The notes below the pieces were generated by a model. The model ran no database searches. It was not told where the DNA came from and saw only the letters and a list, made by a program, of their open reading frames with translations. A program made the position numbers and the translations under genes. From Escherichia coli (lineage in GTDB: Bacteria; Pseudomonadota; Gammaproteobacteria; Enterobacterales; Enterobacteriaceae): a stretch of 64,000 nt of DNA. The stretch lies in assembly GCF_003334355.1 (NCBI RefSeq), contig NZ_QOWP01000003.1, one strand, 5' to 3'. Of this stretch, positions 15,150 to 44,133 are shown in pieces; position 1 is the stretch's first letter, and each line of letters starts with the position of its first letter.

Positions 15150-16193
15150 TTAACGCTTATCCGCCACCAGTTTGAGCGCGTGTTCCAGCACATTAATGTC
15201 TGCACCCGCTTTATGGGCATTTTCACTTAAATAACGCCGCCACTGCCGCGCGCCAGGAATACCCTGGAACAAGCCCAACATATGCCGGGTAATATGACCG
15301 AGATACGTCCCCTGGCTGAGTTCACGCTCAATGTACGGATACATGGCGCGCACTACCGCCACCGGATCGGCATCGATATCCGAGGAACCAAAGATCTCCC
15401 GGTCTACCGCCGCCAGAATACCCGGATTCTGATACGCCTCGCGCCCGACCATCACGCCATCCATATGTTGCAGGTGTGCTTTGGCCTCTTCCAGCGACTT
15501 GATACCACCGTTAATCGACATTGTCAGATGCGGAAAGTCACGCTTCAGTTGATACACACGCGGATAATCGAGCGGCGGGATCTCACGGTTTTCTTTCGGA
15601 CTTAACCCCGAAAGCCAGGCTTTACGTGCATGGATGATGAACATCTCACACTCGCCTTTGCCGGAAACGGTGTTGATGAAATCGCAGAGAAATTCATAGC
15701 TGTCCTGGTCGTCGATGCCAATACGCGTTTTCACCGTCACCGGAATCGACACCACATCGCGCATCGCTTTCACGCAGTCGGCAACCAGCTGCGCATTACC
15801 CATCAGACACGCACCAAACATGCCGTTCTGCACCCGGTCAGACGGGCAGCCGACATTCAGGTTGATCTCATCATATCCACGCGCTTCTGCCAGCTTCGCA
15901 CACTGTGCCAGCGCCGCCGGATCGCTACCGCCGAGTTGCAACGCTACCGGATGTTCTTCTTCACTGTACGCCAGGTAATCACCTTTACCGTGAATAATCG
16001 CCCCTGTGGTCACCATTTCGGTATACAGCAACGTATTGCGGGAAAGCAGACGCAAGAAATAGCGGCAATGTCTGTCCGTCCAGTCGAGCATTGGTGCAAC
16101 GCTAAACCGACCACTCCAGTGAACGTCAGTTTTTTCAGGCATTGCGCTGGTTTGGTTGATTTTTTGCATTTCAGAATTACCGTGCATTTTCAA
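15150..16193 (-). CDS. dusA: tRNA-dihydrouridine synthase A
   Basis: ORF track 347 aa with conserved Dus motifs (...[12 protein letters not shown]...NLNVGCP...). Confidence 0.93.
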
Positions 16194-16480
16194 ATGTAGA
16201 GATTATTTTATCGATATATCATGGGGTTATGTTATTCAGCATCACTGTTCAGGAGGCTCAATAACGGGGTACTATACCATAACAACAGGAAGCGCCTGTC
16301 TCATTGCAAAAGAAAATTGAGATCCTCTCAAGGCATGAAGCTCTCACGAAGTGATGGAAATAATCTTATTAGCCGTTAGCTTTGTTAAGGCCAATGATAA
16401 ACAATCCAGGTTCGACGATAAATAAAAATCACACATTAAACTCCGGTGATATCTCTCCCTGCTAATAGCACTGATAGAGA

Positions 16481-16549: not shown

Positions 16550-17296
16550 TTATTTCTCCGATTTAACCCCGAATAAATCATAAATTAATTTAGAAGTGTC
16601 TGTATATATTTTAATCTTTTCCTTTGAGTTTGGGTCAAACGACTTAGCAAAGTCAATTAATTTCGGTGCAGCATCTCGCATTTTGCTTAAAATATCAGGG
16701 GCGAGCTTTCCTTCATTCACCAGATGTGACATCTTATCCAGATAGCCATCAAAATTCATTTCTCCCCCATCTGCCAGACGCTTCATCTCTCCCAGGTACT
16801 TCTTCATATCACGTTGAGATAACTCTTCAAACTGAGCTGTCAGATAGTTCTCATTATCATCATTAATATTCACTTTTTCTGCTCCTGCTAAATCTGTGTA
16901 GGCACTAGAGTATGAAAGTGAAATCAACAGCGAAGCGAATAATTTTAAGCTGTTGTCATCATATTCCTGACATGCATTAACAAACGTTAAAAAACCAGAA
17001 CCTATTGCTTGCAAATGTATATTCGCTAAAGGTTCATTATCTTTAGATTCCTCATAAAAAAGCTGAACCGTGGAGGGAAGGCCATTCTTGGTTTCTACAT
17101 CAAAAGTATATCGTTCTATGGGCGTTGCATCTTTATTATCCTCAGGATTACATATACTATTAATCGCAAAATGAAAAATAGCCCGATCAACAACTGATGC
17201 AATAAATTCACGATCGTTTAATTCCTCATCAGTGCAATCTCCAATATACTTATTAACCCACTCTTTGAGATTAGTTATTTGCTCAATTAAAAACAC
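16550..17296 (-). CDS. yjbM: Uncharacterised protein YjbM (AT-rich gene)
   Basis: ORF track 248 aa [31 protein letters not shown]...; no recognisable domain. Confidence 0.8.
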
Positions 17297-17571
17297 ATTT
17301 TTTTACGTGCATGCCATAAATTATGAGTGATTCTTTGAATAAACAAATCTATTTTTGCAATAATTATATCCCGATGACGCAGCGCTGAATAATCAATAGA
17401 CTTACCATATATATTATTTAATTTATCTTTGATTGTACCTCTATTATCTAATTTATCGTTGGTTGCATCTATAGTATCTAATTTATCTTTGGTTGCATCT
17501 TTATTATCGAATTGATTTGAATTGAGTGTTTTATTAAAGTATCCAGTTGCACCGGGTATTATCTTCAACAT
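17287..17571 (-). CDS. yjbL: Uncharacterised small protein YjbL with internal charged repeats; overlaps yjbM start by 10 nt
   Basis: ORF track 94 aa; DNA 17400..17520 contains an imperfect ~30-nt tandem repeat encoding D-x-T-K/N-DKLD units. Confidence 0.7.
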
Positions 17572-17889
17572 GATTCATCTACCTTTTTTGTCGTACCGTG
17601 TCCTCCTTATAAGTGTTTTGCCATCTGGTAACTATCAAAAATCGCTCATAATTTTCTGAACTACAGGTATGCGAACAACCCCAGTTAAATAAATAGCGAG
17701 TTAACTTGAAGCAATTTATTTAAAAATGAATTATTAATTATTATCGTGTTGATAATGGTACGACCAGGCAACACAACACCTTACGTACAAAACAGAAAAG
17801 CAACATTACGGCAACAATAAGGGTTCTCGGTGTTTTTCCTGGAACATGGTAAAGTAAGGACATTCTTAACCCCCACTTTGAGGTGCCCG

Positions 17890-37680: not shown

Positions 37681-37735
37681 GCCGGATATACCTACCCGTA
37701 GGCCGGATAAGCCGCGCCTGGCGGCGCATCCGGCA
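37681..37735. repeat. REP element upstream of psiE
   Basis: gccggatatacc...gtaggccggataagccgcgcctggcggcgcatccggc. Confidence 0.7.
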
Positions 37736-37835
37736 AGACAAACCGCACCAAAGCCGGTAATTCAAAAATCACCCATTCAGGTGATTCCCAGCCACCAGCA
37801 ATGCGCGAAAAATCGACAATGTTCCTCTGGAACAA

Positions 37836-38114
37836 ATGAAACGTAACCTGATAAAGGTGGTAAAAATGAAGCCTTATTTTGCTGCTTTGATGTTATCAGT
37901 CTCTGTTCTTCCTGCTTATGCTGGTCCGCTCGGTACTGCTGATAAAGCCGACCTACCGCAAAGCAATGTCTCCAGCCCAATGATGGCCCAGTCGCTCAGG
38001 CAACCAGACCTGCAACCGATATCGACGGACAGGAAGACAGAATGTTTTCGCCTTTACACACCAGATCGCAAACCGGGAGTGAACTGCGTTCCTGATGGCT
38101 CGACAGGCCATTAA
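37836..38114 (+). CDS. yjbT: Small putative secreted protein YjbT (signal-peptide-like N-terminus; start may be ATG at 37866)
   Basis: ORF track 92 aa MKRNLIKVVKMKPYFAALMLSVSVLPAYAGPLGTADK... Confidence 0.6.
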   Translation: MKRNLIKVVKMKPYFAALMLSVSVLPAYAGPLGTADKADLPQSNVSSPMMAQSLRQPDLQPISTDRKTECFRLYTPDRKPGVNCVPDGSTGH

Positions 38115-38160
38115 GAATGAAGGTGCCAGTGAGTGCGAAAACTGGCACCTTTCCCATGAC

Positions 38161-40257
38161 TTAGCGGAAATTGACGCTACGGTCGCTGGTCATGTCATAC
38201 AACTGGAACTTACGCCCAAGTTGCTGACCACCGTCACGCGTCAGCGGCGTCCAGCCAATCGCCGCACGGCTGCGTGTCGGGCCAGACGAGAAGAGATCCA
38301 ACGGTACCGAGACATACACGCCTTTGGTGAAGTCCCCTTCGCCGTACTCCTCTTTCGAAACATTAGTGATCGTGGCATAGCCACCCACCACCACGCCGCT
38401 ATCAAAGCGTTTGGCGATCTCCAGCGTGCCGCCTTTATCCCCTGCCAGATACTGCCCGACGCTGGCTTTAACTAACACATCCTGAGCGAAAGATGGCGTC
38501 CAGTAGGCGGTCAGATGTCCGGTTTTCACGCTGTAGTCGGTGAATTTCATCATATCTTTTGCACTACGCCAGTCGCGCTGTTTAACGTAGTTGGCATCCA
38601 GACCAAACGCCCAGTTGCTGTCCAGCGGGCGATACAACACTTCTGCCCCCGCACCGCCAAACATGGTTTCGAGATAACCACCGTAGACCTGACCGTAGAA
38701 GCCGTTGCCCAGATGCTGGAAGTAGTTGGCTTGCAGGTTATTCACATAGACATCGTTCTGCACATACTCGCGCATATGGGTACGCACGCGCGGTAAGTGC
38801 GAGTCCTGCGGAGGATTAGTGTAGTTAAACTTGTCGTAGTTGTTGGCAAGATTTGCAAACAGGCTGCCGGTGGTCAGCAGATGGTCCGTCAGCCACAAAT
38901 CTGCCGTTCCCATCACGCCCAGCTGATACATGTAAAAGTTTTCCGGGCCACCGACCGACTGGTTCAGCACCGGATCGATATGGAAATCAAAGCGTGATTT
39001 GTCGATATACCAGCCCTGCTCGGTGGACTGCGGAACCACTGGCTCGACGCGTTTTTGCGCCAGCGTCGTTTCGTGGCCCAACGGCTCTCCGGCGAGATGA
39101 TTTTTCAGGCTGGCGACATCGGTTTCCGTCGTCACCTGCGGCATGTTAAGGCGATTTTCCGTAATGCGGATCGTTTTGATCCCATCCGGCAGATCGTTCA
39201 TCACGATCCGATTCGCACGGATGATCCCTTCGCGCGAATCACGATATTTCACCTGCTCGCCGGTAACATACAGCGTATCGCCTTTCGCCTGGATCTGTGG
39301 ATCGGCAAGTCCAGCATTGTATTTCAACAGCGTTAACTGATTCGCCACCACCGAATGCTGCAAAATGGCATCCTGCGGCTGCGGTTGATATTGCGGGCGG
39401 GCGTTATCGTTGTAAGACGGGCGCAGATCGTTAAAGTTGGTGCGCAACGTAACGCCAAACATAAAGGTGTTGCCACGTTCATAGCTAAGGTTAACGTCGG
39501 CCCAATCGGTAACGCGATAAATCGCACCGACGTTAAACTTACTTTTTTGCTCCAGCTTCCCGGCAAAATCCTGCTGATAATTATTGCCTTCATACTCCAG
39601 TTTCAGGCGCAGCGGTTGCCAGGGCGTCTGGTATTCCACGCCGCCAAACAGTGAGGCAGGACCGTGGAACATCTGGCTACCGTCGATAGATCCCGCCTGT
39701 TTGTAGCTGTTATCGCGATAGCAATATTTATCACTGGCTGAACAGAGCGGATTTTTCACATTACCGCTGGTGCCCAAATATCCCCAGCCCAGGCCGAGCG
39801 TAAAATCGAACGGCCCCCAGGCTTTGCTGGCAACAAGATATTCCGCATCAAACAGCCCCGTACCGCCGATATCCCGCGCACCAACCGCCACTTGCGGCAG
39901 CCAGTAACTCTCTTCCCACAAACGCAGTTTGAGATCGAAGGCTTTATCTTTATACGTTTGATCGCCAGAGAACGCTTCGACGCTGCTGTACTGCCGGGTG
40001 CGCACGTCGGTGTAGCGCAGCGTTGTTTCCAGCCACGGGAAGAGTTGCACTGAAGCTGAGTAATAACGGTACTGATCGTTATCGCGATAGTTCAGGCTCA
40101 ACTCCCCTTCCCGCGCCATGCGTGCGGTGGGCGTTTGTAATAATCCTACGCCACCGAAATCCGACTGCGACGGGCCAATGGGCGCAGGATATGTTTCGCC
40201 GTAGCAAGCCATGCTAATGCCCAGCGCCAGTAAGCTAAGCAGATGTCTTTTTTTCAT
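38161..40257 (-). CDS. yjbH: YjbH, putative outer-membrane protein of the yjbEFGH exopolysaccharide-associated operon
   Basis: ORF track 698 aa with signal peptide [20 protein letters not shown]. Confidence 0.9.
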
Positions 40258-40994
40258 TATTGGGGTATCCGCTGCGTCAGAGTCTGAAGAATGTCGGCGT
40301 TAAGGGCATCAGGCGTCTCACTCCAGACGGAGTCCGCGAGGCCAACATAAATAATGCTGCCGGGCATCGGCTCTACGTGACGCTTGTTCCAGTAAGCCAC
40401 CGGCGCTTTTTGCGTGCGTCCGTCCGGGTAAACCACCCACGCGTAGCTGCGATCCGCACCGCTAAGCAGGTTCTGCCCGGAGAGATAGCTCGCCACGTCG
40501 CGACCTGGAGTGAATGGCTGCTTGCCAGGACGGCTGATAAGCCCGAACAGCGTGACCGTGGACGGTGGTGGCCCGACCCACAGCGTGTAGTTGCCCTGCA
40601 ACGGTGGGTTACCGCGTTCGGCAACGCGGACGATATCAGGATCAAGATTGATTTTTTGCCTGCCCGTCACTTTCAACGCCTGAATTTGCTGGCGTAAGGC
40701 GTTAATCGCGGCGGCATCGTCGGCGCTGGAATCTGCAGCCAGTTCTGCCAGCCGTGTCAGCAACGCCTGCTGCTGCCGCAATGCTGCCGCCGTTGCCAGC
40801 TCTTCGCTAATCACCGCACCGGGCCACCAGCTGTTTGCCAGCCGCGGTTGGCCTACCAGATCGATTAAATGCTCTGCGCCCGTTAGCGTTTTGGCCTCAC
40901 TGCTGCCATTGCTGAACACCTTGACGGTTCCTGCCGCGAAGACCGATGACGCTCCCACACTCAAAAGCAACGCGACAAAAGTTTGTTTAATCAT
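40257..40994 (-). CDS. yjbG: YjbG, periplasmic protein of yjbEFGH operon; stop overlaps yjbH start (TAATG)
   Basis: ORF track frame 40257..41090; start at internal [22 protein letters not shown] signal peptide. Confidence 0.85.
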
Positions 40995-41659
40995 TGTTTT
41001 GCCGCCTTGATGAGAGTGGTTTTCACCGGGAAATAATCCGCGCCGAGATACTGTTCCGACTGGCGAATTTGCCCTACGCTGTCGATCCAATAGCGGTTAT
41101 GCCAGCGCGCCTGGTCGGTGGAGACTTCTTCGTCCAGCACGCGAACCGGGGTTTCATCGCTGCCGACTTTGACGGTATCGGTACCATTCCATTTGAAGAC
41201 TGATCGTGCGGTGGCGTAGCGTACCTGCTGGTACTTGGTCCAGCCCATCGTGCGCGTCCAGCTTGCGCCATCAACGATTTGTGCGGGTTTAATCAGCGGG
41301 TCGGCAGCAAGGTTATTCACTTCAATCAGGTTGTCGCCGCCGAGCAGAGTCTTCACCAGACGGCCATGTTGGGTAACGAGAGTAGCCTGATCCTGAGTGA
41401 CCCATTTTTGTTGTCCGTCTTCAGCGAAGGCCAGCACCACAAATAACTGCGGCCCGCCATTAAGCTGCATGTACTGGCTGGCGTAGGGCATATTTTGAAT
41501 ATCATCATCCGTCAGCTGTACGCCTGGCGGGCCGAACAGACTGTCCCACAGTGAATTGCCCAGCTCTTTAGTCGTGGCTGAACAGGCCTGTAATAGCAGG
41601 CAGATAAGAATGAGTGCAGGTCGCTTCACGACTCTTCTCCAGAGGGGCAGAATAACCAC
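40991..41659 (-). CDS. yjbF: YjbF, putative lipoprotein of yjbEFGH operon (true start may be internal); 4-nt overlap with yjbG start
   Basis: ORF track 222 aa with lipobox-like LLQAC near N-terminus. Confidence 0.85.
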   Translation of the reverse strand: MVILPLWRRVVKRPALILICLLLQACSATTKELGNSLWDSLFGPPGVQLTDDDIQNMPYASQYMQLNGGPQLFVVLAFAEDGQQKWVTQDQATLVTQHGRLVKTLLGGDNLIEVNNLAADPLIKPAQIVDGASWTRTMGWTKYQQVRYATARSVFKWNGTDTVKVGSDETPVRVLDEEVSTDQARWHNRYWIDSVGQIRQSEQYLGADYFPVKTTLIKAAKQ

Positions 41660-41742
41660 ACCGGAGTGTGGTTATGGTAAATCCCTTCATACTTCAAGCC
41701 ACAGATGCAATGACTCAAATTATTTTGGGGATACATACTTTA

Positions 41743-41985
41743 TTACTGGGTACTGGTGGTCGTGGTTGTGGTGGTCCCGGTATTAGAACCATCACCGCCA
41801 CCGGTTGCCGCGAGCGCGACACCCACCGCCGAGCTTACGGTGCTGACGCTGGTCGCGGAGGAACTCCCCGCCGAAACCGACGTTGCTGCCGACCCTGCCG
41901 CTTCGCCCACCTGTACAGGTGCAGCCCACGCAGAAGTCGCCGCAAGCGCAGATATGGCAAAAATGCCATACAGAACTTTTTTCAT
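41743..41985 (-). CDS. yjbE: YjbE, small secreted Ser/Thr/Gly-rich low-complexity protein
   Basis: ORF track 80 aa [46 protein letters not shown]...[10 protein letters not shown]. Confidence 0.85.
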
Positions 41986-42293
41986 AACAATTTCCCTTCA
42001 TTGAATGAATGGAGATTTACCCAAAAACATTTCGGGCGGGATCGAGTATACACAACTAAAGCATGCGAATTACGGCGCGGGGAATTAGCGATGGCGTTTT
42101 AGGATAATTGGAATGAATATCAAATATAAGTTTCAACTTATATTTAAATAACAATAAAAATCATAAACTTAAAATAAAAACAAAAGCAATTAATCTGCGT
42201 ATTTTCCGAAATAAACAACGATTAAAAATCTATTTTAGGATTAACCTCATGGTATGATTTCCGTTAAATCACAGACAAGGGGATTTATCTGAT

Positions 42294-42326
42294 AAAAAAA
42301 TGCCGACATAACGTCGGCATTGTTAT
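42294..42326. terminator. Bidirectional hairpin terminator (A7-tgccgacataacgtcggca-ttgtt) in the pgi/yjbE intergenic region
   Basis: Hairpin flanked by A-run and T-rich sequence. Confidence 0.6.
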
Positions 42327-42393
42327 TAAGGTTATTTAATCAATCGTGCTATGTATTAATTGCCGAATACGATGTACATATCGGCATCGACCT

Positions 42394-42470
42394 GTAGGCC
42401 TGATAAGACGCGACCGCGTCGCATCAGGCATCGGTTGCCGGATGCGGCGTGAACGCCTTATCCGGCCTAC
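42394..42470. repeat. REP/BIME elements downstream of pgi
   Basis: gtaggcctgataagacgcg...gcgtcgcatcaggc and gccggatgcggcgtgaacgccttatccggcctac. Confidence 0.8.
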
Positions 42471-42483
42471 ATATCGACGATGA

Positions 42484-44133
42484 TTAACCGCGCCACGCTT
42501 TATAGCGGTTAATCAGACCATTGGTCGAGCTATCGTGGCTGCTGATTTCTTTATCATCTTTCAGCTCTGGCAGAATACGGTTCGCCAGCTGTTTACCCAG
42601 TTCCACGCCCCACTGGTCGAAGGTGAAGATGTTCAGGATCACGCCCTGAGTAAAGATTTTGTGCTCATACAGCGCAATCAACGCACCCAGGCTGAACGGA
42701 GTGATTTCACGCAGCAGGATGGAGTTGGTCGGGCGGTTACCTTCGAATACTTTGAACGGCACCACGTAGTCAAGCGTTGCCGGATCTTTACCCTGATCAC
42801 GATATTCCTGCTCAACCACTTCGCGGGATTTACCAAACGCCAGCGCTTCGGTCTGGGCGAAGAAGTTAGACAGCAGTTTCTGGTGATGATCAGAGAGCGG
42901 GTTATGGGTGATAGCCGGAGCGATGAAATCGCACGGTACCATTTTGGTTCCCTGGTGGATCAGCTGGTAGAACGCGTGCTGACCGTTAGTGCCTGGTTCA
43001 CCCCAGATAATCGGGCCAGTCTGGTAATCCACAACGTTACCGTTACGGTCAACATACTTACCGTTGGACTCCATATTGCCCTGCTGGAAGTACGCCGCGA
43101 AACGGTGCATATACTGGTCATACGGCAGAATCGCTTCAGTTTCCGCACCAAAGAAATTGTTGTACCAGATGCCAATCAGCGCCAGCAGTACAGGCAGGTT
43201 TTTCTCGGCAGGCGTGGTGGAGAAATGCTTGTCCATCGCGTGTGCGCCGGAAAGCAGTTCAACGAAGTTATCAAAGCCGATGGAGAGAACAATCGACAGG
43301 CCAATCGCTGACCACAAAGAGTAACGGCCGCCAACCCAGTCCCAGAACTCGAACATGTTGGCAGTATCAATACCAAACTCGCCAACGGCTTTGGCATTGG
43401 TGGAAAGCGCCGCAAAGTGTTTTGCAACGTGTTTTTCATCACCTGCCGCTTTCAGGAACCAGTCACGCGCGCTATGGGCGTTGGTCATAGTTTCCTGAGT
43501 GGTGAAGGTTTTAGATGCTACCAGGAACAGCGTGGTTTCCGGGTTTACTTTTTTCAGCACTTCCGCGATGTGAGTCCCATCGACGTTAGAAACAAAGTGC
43601 ATGTTCAGGTGGTTTTTGTACGGACGCAGAGCTTCGGTCACCATGTATGGGCCGAGGTCAGAACCGCCGATCCCGATGTTCACTACGTCAGTGATTGCTT
43701 TGCCGGTATAACCTTTCCACTCACCGGAAATAATCGCTTCTGAGAAGGTTTTCATCTTCTCCAGCACCGCGTTGACTTCCGGCATTACGTCTTTGCCATC
43801 AACCAAAATCGGGGTATTGCTACGGTTACGCAGCGCTACGTGCAGCACGGCGCGGTTTTCAGTGCGGTTGATCTTCTCGCCAGAGAACATCGACTTAATC
43901 GCGCCCGCCAGATCGCACTCTTTCGCCAGATCCTGTAATTTCGCCAGCGTCTCTTCAGTGATGCGGTTTTTGGAGTAATCCACCAGCATCTGATCGTCGA
44001 AGGTTGCGGAGAACTTAGAAAAACGATCGCCGTCTTTAGCAAAAAGATCGGCGATCGTAACGTCTTTCATTTCATCGAAGTGTTTCTGTAGTGCCTGCCA
44101 GGCAGCGGTCTGCGTTGGATTGATGTTTTTCAT
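42484..44133 (-). CDS. pgi: Glucose-6-phosphate isomerase
   Basis: ORF track frame 42484..44139; [41 protein letters not shown]... (549 aa). Confidence 0.98.

What the first reader, a model, noticed from the sequence alone, without database searches (positions are those of the whole stretch)
38161..41985. yjbEFGH operon with translational coupling and a low-complexity secreted protein
Four co-oriented genes show TAATG and ATGA stop/start overlaps (yjbG/yjbH at 40257, yjbF/yjbG at 40991..40994). They are led by yjbE, an 80-aa secreted protein that is almost entirely Ser/Thr/Gly/Ala and ends in T7-S-T-Q. A long AT-rich region (41986..42300) lies upstream. The operon is known but its biochemistry is still poorly defined; YjbE composition suggests a heavily modified or structural extracellular peptide.
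Basis: partly seen in the sequence, partly recalled or inferred. Interest (0 to 1): 0.25.

Follow-up and report, generated by a model that had tools for sequence, protein, structure and literature searches.

The report
Known E. coli yjbEFGH envelope operon

Summary
The window is E. coli chromosome. On the minus strand lie yjbE (41743-41985), yjbF (40991-41629, GTG start), yjbG (40257-40994) and yjbH (38161-40257), between pgi and psiE/xylE, exactly as RefSeq annotates them. The ATGA (yjbF/yjbG) and TAATG (yjbG/yjbH) overlaps, the Ser/Thr/Gly/Ala-rich 80-aa YjbE ending in T7-S-T-Q, and the 31% GC upstream region are all real.

None of it is new. The operon was described in 2007. It is Rcs-activated and is a paralogue of gfcABCD. 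The overlaps, the coupling idea and the "modified Ser/Thr-rich first protein" idea were published for gfc in 2021.

Such overlaps are common: 11 of 42 co-directional gene pairs in 50 kb of this window. Here, though, they are conserved in 69-74 of 81 related loci, as is the GTG start of yjbF.

What I add:
- The YjbE tail is under purifying selection: one identical 21-aa tail has 33 different DNA encodings.
- The yjbE-yjbF spacer carries a hairpin, TAACCACAC-N4-GTGTGGTTATT, that is invariant across Enterobacterales. I found no published description of it.
- The AT-rich region holds an RcsB-box-like site and an Rfam STnc430 match.

Verdict: already known, low interest.

The parts
42299..42321 (.). 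pgi intrinsic terminator hairpin (AATGCCGACGTTATGTCGGCATT + T-run). It marks the upstream boundary of the yjbE regulatory region and also forms the 3' end of the Rfam STnc430 match on the + strand.
   Evidence: terminator scan; Rfam alignment
41986..42300 (-). AT-rich pgi-yjbE intergenic/regulatory region. GC is 30.8% overall; the lowest 120 nt (42116..42235) are 17.5% GC.
42236..42249 (-). Candidate RcsB/RcsAB box TGAGGTTAATCCTA. It has one mismatch to the pseudopalindromic RcsB box TN(G/A)GAN4TC(T/C)NA and is conserved across genera. It lies about 190 bp upstream of the -10 element. A second 1-mismatch site lies at 42279..42292.
   Evidence: box consensus from PMC7913699. Binding was not tested.
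42045..42050 (-). Conserved -10-like hexamer TATACT within the invariant block TGTGTATACTCG. This is the inferred yjbE promoter.
   Evidence: footprint over 53 distinct upstream sequences. The sigma-70 consensus scan did not call it, as expected for an activator-dependent promoter. The transcription start site is not known to me.
41986..42015 (-). Conserved 5'UTR block TCTCCATTCATTCAATGAAGGGAAATTGTT containing the yjbE Shine-Dalgarno sequence (GAAGGGA, 41993..41999). It can fold into a small hairpin that pairs the SD.
   Evidence: There is no covariation because the block is nearly invariant.
41743..41985 (-). yjbE: 80-aa precursor with a Sec-type signal peptide (cleavage predicted after AWA21), a low-complexity S/T/G/A/V body, and the conserved C-terminal core [29 protein letters not shown].
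   Evidence: (PF11106, 5.5e-33, full length)
41652..41675 (-). Hairpin AUAACCACAC-UCCG-GUGUGGUUAU in the 113-nt yjbE-yjbF spacer. It is 10 bp, dG -14.8 kcal/mol, z = -5.3, and ends 22 nt before the yjbF GTG. The stem is invariant in 73 of 81 related loci.
40991..41629 (-). yjbF: 212-aa outer-membrane lipoprotein precursor (lipobox LLQAC, Ser at +2), GfcB paralogue. It has a GTG start preceded by GGAGAA.
   Evidence: 2IN5, E 1.3e-42; PF11102; 38% id to GfcB; GTG start in 80/81 loci
40257..40994 (-). yjbG: 245-aa periplasmic GfcC-family protein. Its start overlaps the yjbF stop (ATGA).
   Evidence: 3P42, E 2e-54; PF20616+PF06251; 42% id to GfcC
38161..40257 (-). yjbH: 698-aa outer-membrane protein of the YjbH/GfcD family. 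Its start overlaps the yjbG stop (TAATG). My model shows about 12 N-terminal strands, a central alpha/beta domain and about 12 C-terminal strands.
   Evidence: PF06082, 9e-271; 65% id to GfcD; AF2, pLDDT 65.7; weak Foldseek matches to LptD, AlgE, PelBC, FapF
38121..38150 (.). Hairpin AGGTGCCAGT-N10-ACTGGCACCT just after the yjbH stop, between yjbH and the convergent 92-aa periplasmic-protein gene (37836..38114, +). It is the probable operon end / bidirectional terminator and has a weak T-run.
   Evidence: fold -23.5 kcal/mol for the 66-nt segment. The terminator scan did not call it.

Best explanation
This is the core-genome yjbEFGH operon of E. coli, a paralogue of the gfcABCD module of the group 4 capsule operon.

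All four products are exported to the envelope:
- YjbE is a small Sec-exported low-complexity protein.
- YjbF is a GfcB-like outer-membrane lipoprotein.
- YjbG is a GfcC-like periplasmic protein.
- YjbH is a GfcD-like double-beta-barrel outer-membrane protein.

The operon has no glycosyltransferase, flippase or polymerase. It is therefore best read as an outer-membrane export or anchoring module for a surface glycan made elsewhere, not as a biosynthetic locus. By analogy with GfcB/C/D, YjbF/G/H probably form one outer-membrane complex (inferred).

Expression logic read from the sequence:
1. An activator-dependent promoter sits in an AT-rich region. Literature shows the operon is RcsA-RcsB dependent and induced by envelope and osmotic stress.
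2. yjbE is translated on its own.
3. A deeply conserved hairpin in the spacer probably acts as a leaky terminator, pause site or mRNA-stabilising structure (inferred).
4. yjbF starts at a conserved weak GTG.
5. yjbG and yjbH are translationally coupled to yjbF through ATGA and TAATG overlaps. This would tie F:G:H production together and let YjbE be made in a different amount (inferred).

YjbE's invariant C-terminal [10 protein letters not shown]7-STQ tail is a functional protein motif. It could be a recognition or modification site, or a segment that threads into YjbH (speculative).
For: Identity:
- 100% DNA identity to annotated E. coli genomes; the locus is in 5414/5426 genomes.
- RefSeq coordinates are identical to the ORFs.
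- Full-length Pfam matches for all four proteins, with no other domains.
- YjbF matches 2IN5 (YmcC/GfcB) at E 1e-42 and YjbG matches 3P42 (GfcC) at E 2e-54.
- Identity to the K-12 Gfc paralogues: F/B 38%, G/C 42%, H/D 65%.

Same geometry in gfc: 4-nt and 1-nt overlaps, a 106-nt spacer with a hairpin, and a GTG start.

Conservation over 81 loci: G/H 1-nt overlap in 74, F/G 4-nt overlap in 69, GTG start in 80. A signal-peptide plus S/T/G/A-rich small ORF lies upstream in all but three loci (two Chimaeribacter loci and one truncated locus).

YjbE tail: an identical 21-aa tail in 44 loci is encoded by 33 different DNA sequences.

Hairpin: it is invariant in 73/81 loci. Within Enterobacteriaceae the loops vary only as UNCG (TTCG, TCCG, TGCG, TACG). 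dG is -14.8 kcal/mol and z is -5.3. A canonical U-run follows it in Pantoea and Sodalis.

YjbH: the AF2 model gives roughly 12 strands, an alpha/beta domain and roughly 12 strands.

Literature:
- Rcs/RcsA dependence and co-induction of all four genes: PMC5461412, PMC3599342 (log2 fold change 5.7, 5.7, 4.3, 5.2), PMC5105897.
- GfcB/C/D assemble at the outer membrane, and the overlaps were noted there: PMC8592465.
- Double-barrel YjbH/GfcD family: PMC8346858, PMC9603273.
- Lateral-gate model: PMC11494523.
- yjbF and yjbE-yjbF IS1 mutants alter colanic-acid anchoring and the Rcs state: PMC8117528.
Against: - No experiment here shows coupling, complex formation, YjbE export or YjbE modification.
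- In E. coli the hairpin lacks a canonical U-tract (tail UCUGCCCC), and the terminator scan did not call it. All four genes are induced to similar extents (PMC3599342), so it is not a strong terminator.
- The stem is invariant, so it gives essentially no covariation support.
- I found no 3'-end mapping data for this locus.
- The classical literature describes yjbEFGH as 'producing' a distinct exopolysaccharide (EPS) of unknown structure, which my export-module reading reinterprets.
- YjbE and GfcA show no significant sequence similarity beyond the signal peptide.
- The YjbH model is only of medium confidence (pLDDT 65.7) and its Foldseek TM-scores are low.
Confidence: 0.85

Rival explanations
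1. YjbE is not an extracellular, heavily modified peptide. It is a small membrane- or complex-embedded subunit. After signal-peptide cleavage, the conserved Gly/Ala/Val segment inserts into a membrane or into the YjbH barrel or lateral gate, with the poly-Thr tail as a short anchor or plug.
For: Distant homologues and GfcA-type proteins carry a clearly TM-like segment at the same position. The 19-residue Kyte-Doolittle maximum is 2.0-2.3 in Pantoea, Erwinia, Sodalis and GfcA (alignment). RefSeq names GfcA 'threonine-rich inner membrane protein'. AF2 weakly predicts a helix over residues 45-62. The most conserved part of YjbE is this segment plus the tail, not the S/T-rich body.
Against: In E. 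coli YjbE the segment is short and only weakly hydrophobic (maximum 1.24). The AF2 model has low confidence (pLDDT 53). There are no localisation data.
Confidence: 0.3
2. yjbEFGH is a self-contained locus that synthesises its own distinct exopolysaccharide. This is the classical reading of the 2007 paper.
For: Literature reports that over-expression alters colony morphology and EPS, and that uronic-acid-containing material depends on yjb in Salmonella (PMC5461412, citing Ferrieres 2007).
Against: None of the four proteins has a glycosyltransferase, polymerase, flippase or sugar-nucleotide domain. Each is fully covered by a GfcA-D/YjbE-H type family. The paralogous gfcABCD acts on O-antigen made elsewhere (PMC8592465). 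The polymer has never been defined (PMC5461412, PMC11494523).
Confidence: 0.1
3. yjbE acts mainly as a cis-regulatory leader ORF. Translation of its Thr-rich end would modulate the downstream hairpin (thr-operon-like attenuation) and so control yjbFGH.
For: There is a run of Thr codons at the very end of the ORF. In most genera the hairpin begins about 20 nt after the stop codon, within reach of a terminating ribosome. In some genera the hairpin is followed by a U-run.
Against: YjbE has a conserved Sec signal peptide and conserved non-Thr residues ([17 protein letters not shown]). No alternative anti-terminator pairing is evident. In E. coli a roughly 50-nt insertion separates the stop codon from the hairpin, yet the element is retained. 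The Thr codons used are mixed, common ones.
Confidence: 0.05
4. The invariant inverted repeat in the spacer works at the DNA level, as an operator for a dimeric regulator or a mobile-element or recombination site, rather than as an RNA hairpin.
For: It is a perfect 10-bp palindrome whose stem sequence never changes, which is unusual for a purely structural RNA. The spacer is prone to insertions: REP-like insertions in Citrobacter, IS1 in E. coli, and 24 E. coli genomes with an interrupted spacer.
Against: Within Enterobacteriaceae the loop changes only at the N of UNCG. In two distant clades it is GNRA (GUGA, GCAA), as expected for a stable RNA tetraloop. A U-rich tail follows it on the transcribed strand. 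The gfc-type operons have a different hairpin at the same place. The motif occurs only once in the 64-kb window.
Confidence: 0.07

Closest known systems
[quoted passage not shown]
   Same: Same gene order and almost the same sizes: 80/101, 212/214, 245/248 and 698/698 aa. Identity is 38% for F/B, 42% for G/C and 65% for H/D. The junctions match: an ATGA overlap, a 1-nt overlap, a GTG start of the lipoprotein gene, and a roughly 110-nt spacer with a hairpin after the small first gene. The first protein has the same layout: signal peptide, T/S/G/A-rich region, hydrophobic G/A/V segment, acidic/Gly patch, poly-Thr, then a terminal R or Q.
   Different: yjbEFGH has no linked wza/wzb/wzc-type genes (gfcE-etp-etk); the convergent neighbour is a small periplasmic-protein gene. 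YjbE and GfcA are not detectably similar in sequence beyond the signal peptide. The spacer hairpin has a different sequence. yjb is Rcs-regulated and present in essentially all E. coli. The substrate of gfc is O-antigen capsule; that of yjb is undefined (literature).
Vibrio orf1-wbfDCB / wbfB-C-D and Aeromonas gfcABCD loci (literature only)
   Same: They are reported as homologous four-gene modules linked to capsule or EPS production, with 1-4 bp overlaps (PMC8592465).
   Different: I did not examine them. My genome scan returned only Enterobacterales.
Outer-membrane polymer and lipid exporters with beta-barrels: LptD (lateral gate), PgaA/AlgE/BcsC/PelB porins, and the FapF amyloid secretion barrel
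   Same: The YjbH model is a multi-strand outer-membrane beta-barrel protein. Foldseek lists LptD, AlgE, PelBC and FapF among its hits. Published fold recognition and AlphaFold models assign a FapF-like N-terminal barrel and a PgaA-like C-terminal barrel with a lateral opening (PMC9603273, PMC11494523).
   Different: YjbH has two barrels in one chain with a central globular domain. My structural matches are weak (TM 0.13-0.19 on the query; 0.37-0.43 on FapF). There is no sequence-level match to any solved structure.
Intra-operon hairpins that set differential expression (leaky intrinsic terminators or 3'-end stabilisers)
   Same: A stable stem-loop with a UNCG tetraloop and a U-rich tail lies between a highly conserved first cistron and the rest of the operon.
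   Different: The stem sequence is invariant rather than covarying. In E. coli the U-tract is poor. Function was not tested, and I found no published description.

Membership tests
E. coli yjbEFGH operon (orthologue of K-12 b4026-b4029) | Four co-oriented genes yjbE-F-G-H between pgi and psiE/xylE | tested here: met
   RefSeq annotation of a 100%-identical genome has the same coordinates and neighbours.
E. coli yjbEFGH operon (orthologue of K-12 b4026-b4029) | Each product is a full-length match to its name-giving Pfam family (PF11106, PF11102, PF20616+PF06251, PF06082) | tested here: met
   E-values are 5.5e-33, 7.7e-63, 8.4e-50/1.9e-42 and 9.1e-271, with essentially full model coverage. NCBIfam gave no hit.
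E. coli yjbEFGH operon (orthologue of K-12 b4026-b4029) | Transcribed as one unit and activated by the Rcs phosphorelay (RcsA-RcsB) | tested here: inconclusive
   Sequence gives only candidates. A conserved RcsB-box-like site at 42236..42249 has 1 mismatch, and there is a conserved -10-like block. Co-induction and Rcs dependence come from the literature (PMC3599342, PMC5105897, PMC5461412); the primary 2007 paper was not held.
GfcB/GfcC/GfcD-type outer-membrane module | GfcB-like lipoprotein: lipobox plus the fold of 2IN5 | tested here: met
   The sequence LLQAC|S gives a lipobox. The phmmer match to 2IN5 covers residues 28-210 at E 1.3e-42. Acylation itself was not tested.
GfcB/GfcC/GfcD-type outer-membrane module | GfcC-like periplasmic protein (two beta-grasp/SLBB-like domains plus a C-terminal helix, 3P42) | tested here: met
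   The phmmer match to 3P42 covers residues 20-245 at E 2e-54. Both Pfam GfcC N- and C-domains are present.
GfcB/GfcC/GfcD-type outer-membrane module | GfcD/YjbH double beta-barrel (about 12 strands, a central domain, then about 12-13 strands) | tested here: met
   The AF2 model has 12 strands at 52-272, an alpha/beta domain at 301-389 and 12 long strands at 423-650, but only at pLDDT 65.7 / pTM 0.56. Identity to GfcD is 65%. This agrees with PMC8346858, PMC9603273 and PMC11494523.
GfcB/GfcC/GfcD-type outer-membrane module | The three proteins form a physical complex at the outer membrane | not testable with these tools
   This was shown for GfcB/C/D only (PMC8592465).
Translationally coupled gene pairs | The stop codon of the upstream gene overlaps or abuts the start codon of the downstream gene | tested here: met
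   ATGA at 40991..40994 and TAATG at 40257. They are conserved in 69/81 and 74/81 loci.
Translationally coupled gene pairs | Downstream translation depends on upstream translation | not testable with these tools
   This needs reporter fusions with premature stops or separated cistrons.
Intrinsic (Rho-independent) terminator, considered for the yjbE-yjbF hairpin | A G+C-containing stem-loop immediately followed by a U-run | tested here: not met
   The stem is good (10 bp, -14.8 kcal/mol). In E. coli the tail is UCUGCCCC and the scan did not call it. The criterion is met in Pantoea, Sodalis and Biostraticola (UUAUUUUUUG). I therefore describe it as terminator-like or stabiliser-like, not as a proven terminator.
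   By inspection only: MKK, a hydrophobic core, then AWA|AP, conserved in all homologues. No predictor tool was available.
   There is no evidence either way. The literature only speculates (PMC8592465, PMC9603273).

The most novel reading that the evidence does not exclude
There are two linked ideas.

1. The invariant spacer hairpin may be a sequence-specific RNA regulatory element. It could be a factor-dependent leaky terminator or processing site, or the terminator of a yjbE-3'-derived small RNA. In either case it would set the YjbE:YjbFGH ratio.

2. The invariant YjbE tail ([10 protein letters not shown]7-STQ) may be the recognition or attachment site through which a glycan is primed on, or handed to, a protein carrier. 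That carrier would be threaded through the FapF-like barrel of YjbH. This would be a protein-anchored surface polysaccharide pathway in enterobacteria.
Probability: 0.15. Interest if true: 0.55.

Novelty: already known. Interest (0 to 1): 0.15.

Why it matters
As a finding it is ordinary: a named, annotated, core E. coli operon whose gene overlaps and odd first protein are already in print.

It still marks an open question. What the widespread YjbH/GfcD double-barrel family and its three partner proteins actually move across, or anchor in, the outer membrane is unknown. So is the role of the small Thr-rich first protein.

The comparative details gathered here give concrete, cheap mutational targets for anyone working on that question:
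- the protein-level constraint on the poly-Thr tail;
- the conserved GTG start of yjbF;
- the conserved gene overlaps;
- the invariant spacer hairpin.

They do not change the classification of the locus.

Tried and rejected
- NCBIfam scan of all five local proteins: no hits. Pfam was used instead.
- Word-indexed homologue search with YjbE returned mostly frameshifted or truncated variants and was uninformative about distant relatives. It was replaced by a genome-contig scan seeded with YjbH/GfcD.
- Tests of YjbE-GfcA homology failed. BLASTP gave E = 65. hhalign of the two classes aligned only the signal peptide. The relationship therefore rests on synteny and architecture only.
- AF2 of YjbE gave no confident fold (pLDDT 53).
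- Foldseek of the YjbH model against PDB gave only generic outer-membrane barrel hits with low TM-scores. I did not run further fold searches.
- Rfam has no family for the spacer hairpin or the 5'UTR. The weak isrH hit (16 bits, E 0.29) at 41683..41729 was rejected as chance.
- RNAalifold on the hairpin gave no useful covariation because the stem is invariant. The two 'compensatory' pairs come from two gfc-type sequences with an uncertain alignment.
- Term-seq / 3'-end data: the eLife 2021 supplements do not list yjbE or yjbF, and two other papers have no held supplements.
- Ferrieres 2007 and Ionescu & Belkin 2009 are not held. The cap on papers was reached before I could read the gfcA mutant paper PMC3853201.
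- The idea that the T7 run is a slippage-prone, length-variable tract was rejected. Codons are mixed ACC/ACA/ACG/ACT and the length is fixed across genera.

Full report
**What is there.** The window is E. coli chromosome. Positions 37800-42500 match E. coli strain 720632 at 100%. At least 80% of that segment is present in 5414 of 5426 complete E. coli genomes. RefSeq annotates the same ORFs that the mechanical ORF list gives. On the minus strand these are:
- pgi (42484-44133)
- yjbE (41743-41985)
- yjbF (40991-41629)
- yjbG (40257-40994)
- yjbH (38161-40257)

They are followed by a convergent 92-aa periplasmic-protein gene (37836-38114), psiE and xylE.

**Checking the observation.** All sequence statements hold.
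- yjbF/yjbG share ATGA at 40991-40994.
- yjbG/yjbH share the A of TAATG at 40257.
- YjbE is 80 aa and ends [11 protein letters not shown].
- S+T+G+A make up 69% of the YjbE precursor and 76% of the predicted mature protein.
- Positions 41986-42300 are 30.8% GC against 50.4% for the window. Only 2.3% of equal-sized windows are this low, in six regions of the window.

Two refinements are needed. First, the yjbE-yjbF junction is a 113-nt spacer, not an overlap. Second, yjbF starts at GTG 41629, not at the first in-frame start codon (41659).

Overlaps of this kind are common. In window 1-50000, 11 of 42 co-directional annotated pairs overlap by 4 or 1 nt, mostly in a prophage. A single instance therefore means little.

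**Protein identities.** Each product is a full-length match to its eponymous Pfam family and to nothing else: YjbE PF11106; YjbF PF11102; YjbG PF20616+PF06251; YjbH PF06082 at 9e-271.
- YjbF matches the solved YmcC/GfcB structure 2IN5 (E 1e-42).
- YjbG matches GfcC 3P42 (E 2e-54).
- YjbE and YjbH have no solved relatives by sequence.

Against the K-12 gfc operon, identities are 38% (F/B), 42% (G/C) and 65% (H/D). YjbE versus GfcA is not significant. A profile-profile comparison of the two small-protein classes aligns only the signal peptide.

My AF2 model of YjbH (pLDDT 65.7, pTM 0.56) shows 12 strands (52-272), an alpha/beta domain (301-389) and 12 long strands (423-650). This agrees with the published double-barrel description (PMC8346858, PMC9603273, PMC11494523). 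Foldseek gives only weak generic outer-membrane barrel matches, including LptD, AlgE, PelBC and FapF. YjbE alone gives no confident fold.

No glycosyltransferase, polymerase or flippase domain is present. The operon therefore looks like an outer-membrane handling module rather than a synthesis locus.

**Comparative anatomy.** A genome scan seeded with a YjbH/GfcD alignment gave 80 Enterobacterales loci with 62-99% identity. I combined these with the window and K-12 gfc.
- The G/H 1-nt overlap is present in 74 of 81 loci.
- The F/G 4-nt overlap is present in 69 of 81 (a 1-nt overlap in 8 more).
- The lipoprotein gene starts with GTG in 80 of 81.
- A small ORF with a signal peptide and S/T/G/A-rich composition precedes it in all but two Chimaeribacter loci and one truncated locus.

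The K-12 gfc operon has the same geometry. The overlaps are therefore maintained, which supports the translational-coupling idea already published for gfcB-C-D and homologous operons (PMC8592465) but does not prove it.

**YjbE.** The C-terminal 29 residues [29 protein letters not shown] are almost invariant across genera, whereas the body varies. In 44 loci an identical 21-aa tail is encoded by 33 different DNA sequences, and every codon shows synonymous variants. The poly-Thr run is therefore a constrained protein motif, not a slippery repeat.

GfcA-type and intermediate (Pantoea, Erwinia, Sodalis, Rahnella) proteins share the same layout: signal peptide, T/S/G/A-rich region, hydrophobic G/A/V segment, acidic/Gly patch, poly-Thr, then a terminal R or Q. 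In those proteins the hydrophobic segment is TM-like (Kyte-Doolittle 2.0-2.3). In E. coli YjbE it is weak (1.24).

**The yjbE-yjbF spacer.** It contains a 10-bp hairpin AUAACCACAC-UCCG-GUGUGGUUAU at 41652-41675. Its dG is -14.8 kcal/mol with z = -5.3, and it occurs only once in the window.
- The motif TAACCACAC-N4-GTGTGGTTATT is invariant in 73 of 81 loci, out to Sodalis, Biostraticola and Rahnella, while the flanks diverge.
- It usually ends 21-26 nt before the GTG start of yjbF.
- Loops are TTCG (58 loci), TCCG, TGCG and TACG, which are all UNCG. Distant clades have GUGA and GCAA (GNRA) and a few other loops.
- In Pantoea and Sodalis a clean U-run follows. In E. coli the tail is poor, and the terminator scan did not call it.
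- gfc-type operons have a different hairpin plus a T-run at the same place.

I read this as an RNA element: a leaky terminator, pause site or stabiliser that separates yjbE expression from yjbFGH. The invariance of the stem is not explained by structure alone. All four genes are co-induced to similar degrees (PMC3599342), so it does not block read-through. I found no description of it in Rfam or in searchable papers.

The spacer is also an insertion site.
- Several Citrobacter and Enterobacter loci carry REP-like inserts.
- E. coli and its closest relative E. whittamii, and with a related but shorter insert two Citrobacter loci, carry extra sequence (about 50 nt in E. coli) between the yjbE stop and the hairpin.
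- In strain H2, IS1 sits with a 9-bp duplication on the yjbF start codon. This resembles the laboratory-evolved mutants of PMC8117528.
- 24 of 5426 genomes have an interrupted spacer.

**Upstream region.** Footprinting over 53 distinct sequences shows three conserved features.
- An invariant block TGTGTATACTCG, giving a -10-like TATACT at 42045-42050.
- An invariant 5'UTR/SD block (41986-42015) that can pair the Shine-Dalgarno sequence.
- A conserved TGAGGTTAATCCTAAAA at 42236-42249. It is one mismatch from the RcsB box of PMC7913699 and fits the core of the RcsAB box.

The last site lies inside a full-length Rfam STnc430 match on the opposite strand (42182-42331, 79 bits against a gathering score of 47). 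That match ends on the pgi terminator hairpin and has a sigma-70-like promoter 7 nt upstream of its start. I cannot say whether the conservation serves the box, the sRNA or both.

**Comparison and verdict.** This is the known yjbEFGH operon. According to the literature it is RcsA-RcsB activated, induced by osmotic and envelope stress, and linked to an undefined EPS and to colanic-acid anchoring (PMC5461412, PMC3599342, PMC5105897, PMC8117528). Its mechanistic hints were already published for the gfc paralogue. Novelty: already known. The conserved hairpin, the conserved GTG start and the constrained YjbE tail are small additions that suggest experiments, not a new kind of system.

Noticed in passing
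window 42182..42331 (+ strand): There is a full-length Rfam match to the enterobacterial sRNA family STnc430 (79 bits against a gathering score of 47). It lies inside the AT-rich pgi-yjbE intergenic region, antisense to the yjbE upstream region. It ends on the pgi terminator hairpin. A sigma-70-like promoter (ATAACA-16-TAAAAT, 42148..42175) ends 7 nt before its start. Its conserved core UUUUAGGAUUAACCUCA is the reverse complement of the RcsB-box-like site.
   Followed up: partly
window 42397..42467 and 37701..37793: These are REP/BIME-type elements. The first, just downstream of pgi, matches Rfam naRNA4 at 79.5 bits. The second, between psiE and the 92-aa periplasmic-protein gene, is a weak match (29 bits). 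It overlaps a 47-aa RefSeq 'hypothetical protein' (37692..37835) that therefore looks like a doubtful gene call.
   Followed up: no
L003 (E. coli strain H2, NZ_CP010163.1) 4331..5220; equivalent to window 41626..41634: An IS1A copy (777 bp including the 9-bp target duplication GAGTCGTGA) is inserted exactly on the yjbF start codon. It separates yjbF from its Shine-Dalgarno sequence and from yjbE. This is the same class of mutation that arose in sedimentation-resistant laboratory-evolved strains (PMC8117528). In the 5426-genome set, 24 genomes have an interrupted yjbE-yjbF spacer and a few carry insertions of 15-73 bp.
   Followed up: partly
window 41986..42015 (- strand): The nearly invariant yjbE 5'UTR block can form a small hairpin (CCAUUCAU/AUGAAGGG) that pairs the yjbE Shine-Dalgarno sequence. 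This is a possible translational control point. There is no covariation to test it.
   Followed up: partly
window 1..about 16300: A lambdoid prophage remnant (Q antiterminator, RusA, Rha, KilA-N, YmfL/T/K, YfdP-R genes) has an IS3-family element inserted into its KilA-N gene (3072..4285). It abuts a truncated tRNA-dihydrouridine synthase fragment (16174..16278). That fits integration into dusA, a known integration hot spot (from my own knowledge).
   Followed up: no
L005, L007, L013, L015, L019, L024, L030, L035, L058, L065 (yjbE-yjbF spacers): In several Citrobacter, Enterobacter and Pseudenterobacter genomes a roughly 55-nt REP-like palindromic element (…GCCGGGTAAGCG…CCCGGCAA…) is inserted between the conserved hairpin and the yjbF ribosome-binding site. 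In E. coli and its closest relative, the extra sequence lies upstream of the hairpin instead. The hairpin itself is untouched in every case.
   Followed up: partly
L075, L078 (Chimaeribacter): These yjbFGH-like loci lack both the small S/T-rich upstream ORF and the conserved hairpin, and the F/G junction has a 5-nt gap. They may be natural 'E-less' variants that could show what YjbE is needed for.
   Followed up: no
window 25701..27279 and 16641..17662: RefSeq marks a frameshifted SopA-family gene and a frameshifted DUF2713 gene as pseudogenes. The first lies in one of the six most AT-rich stretches of the window.
   Followed up: no
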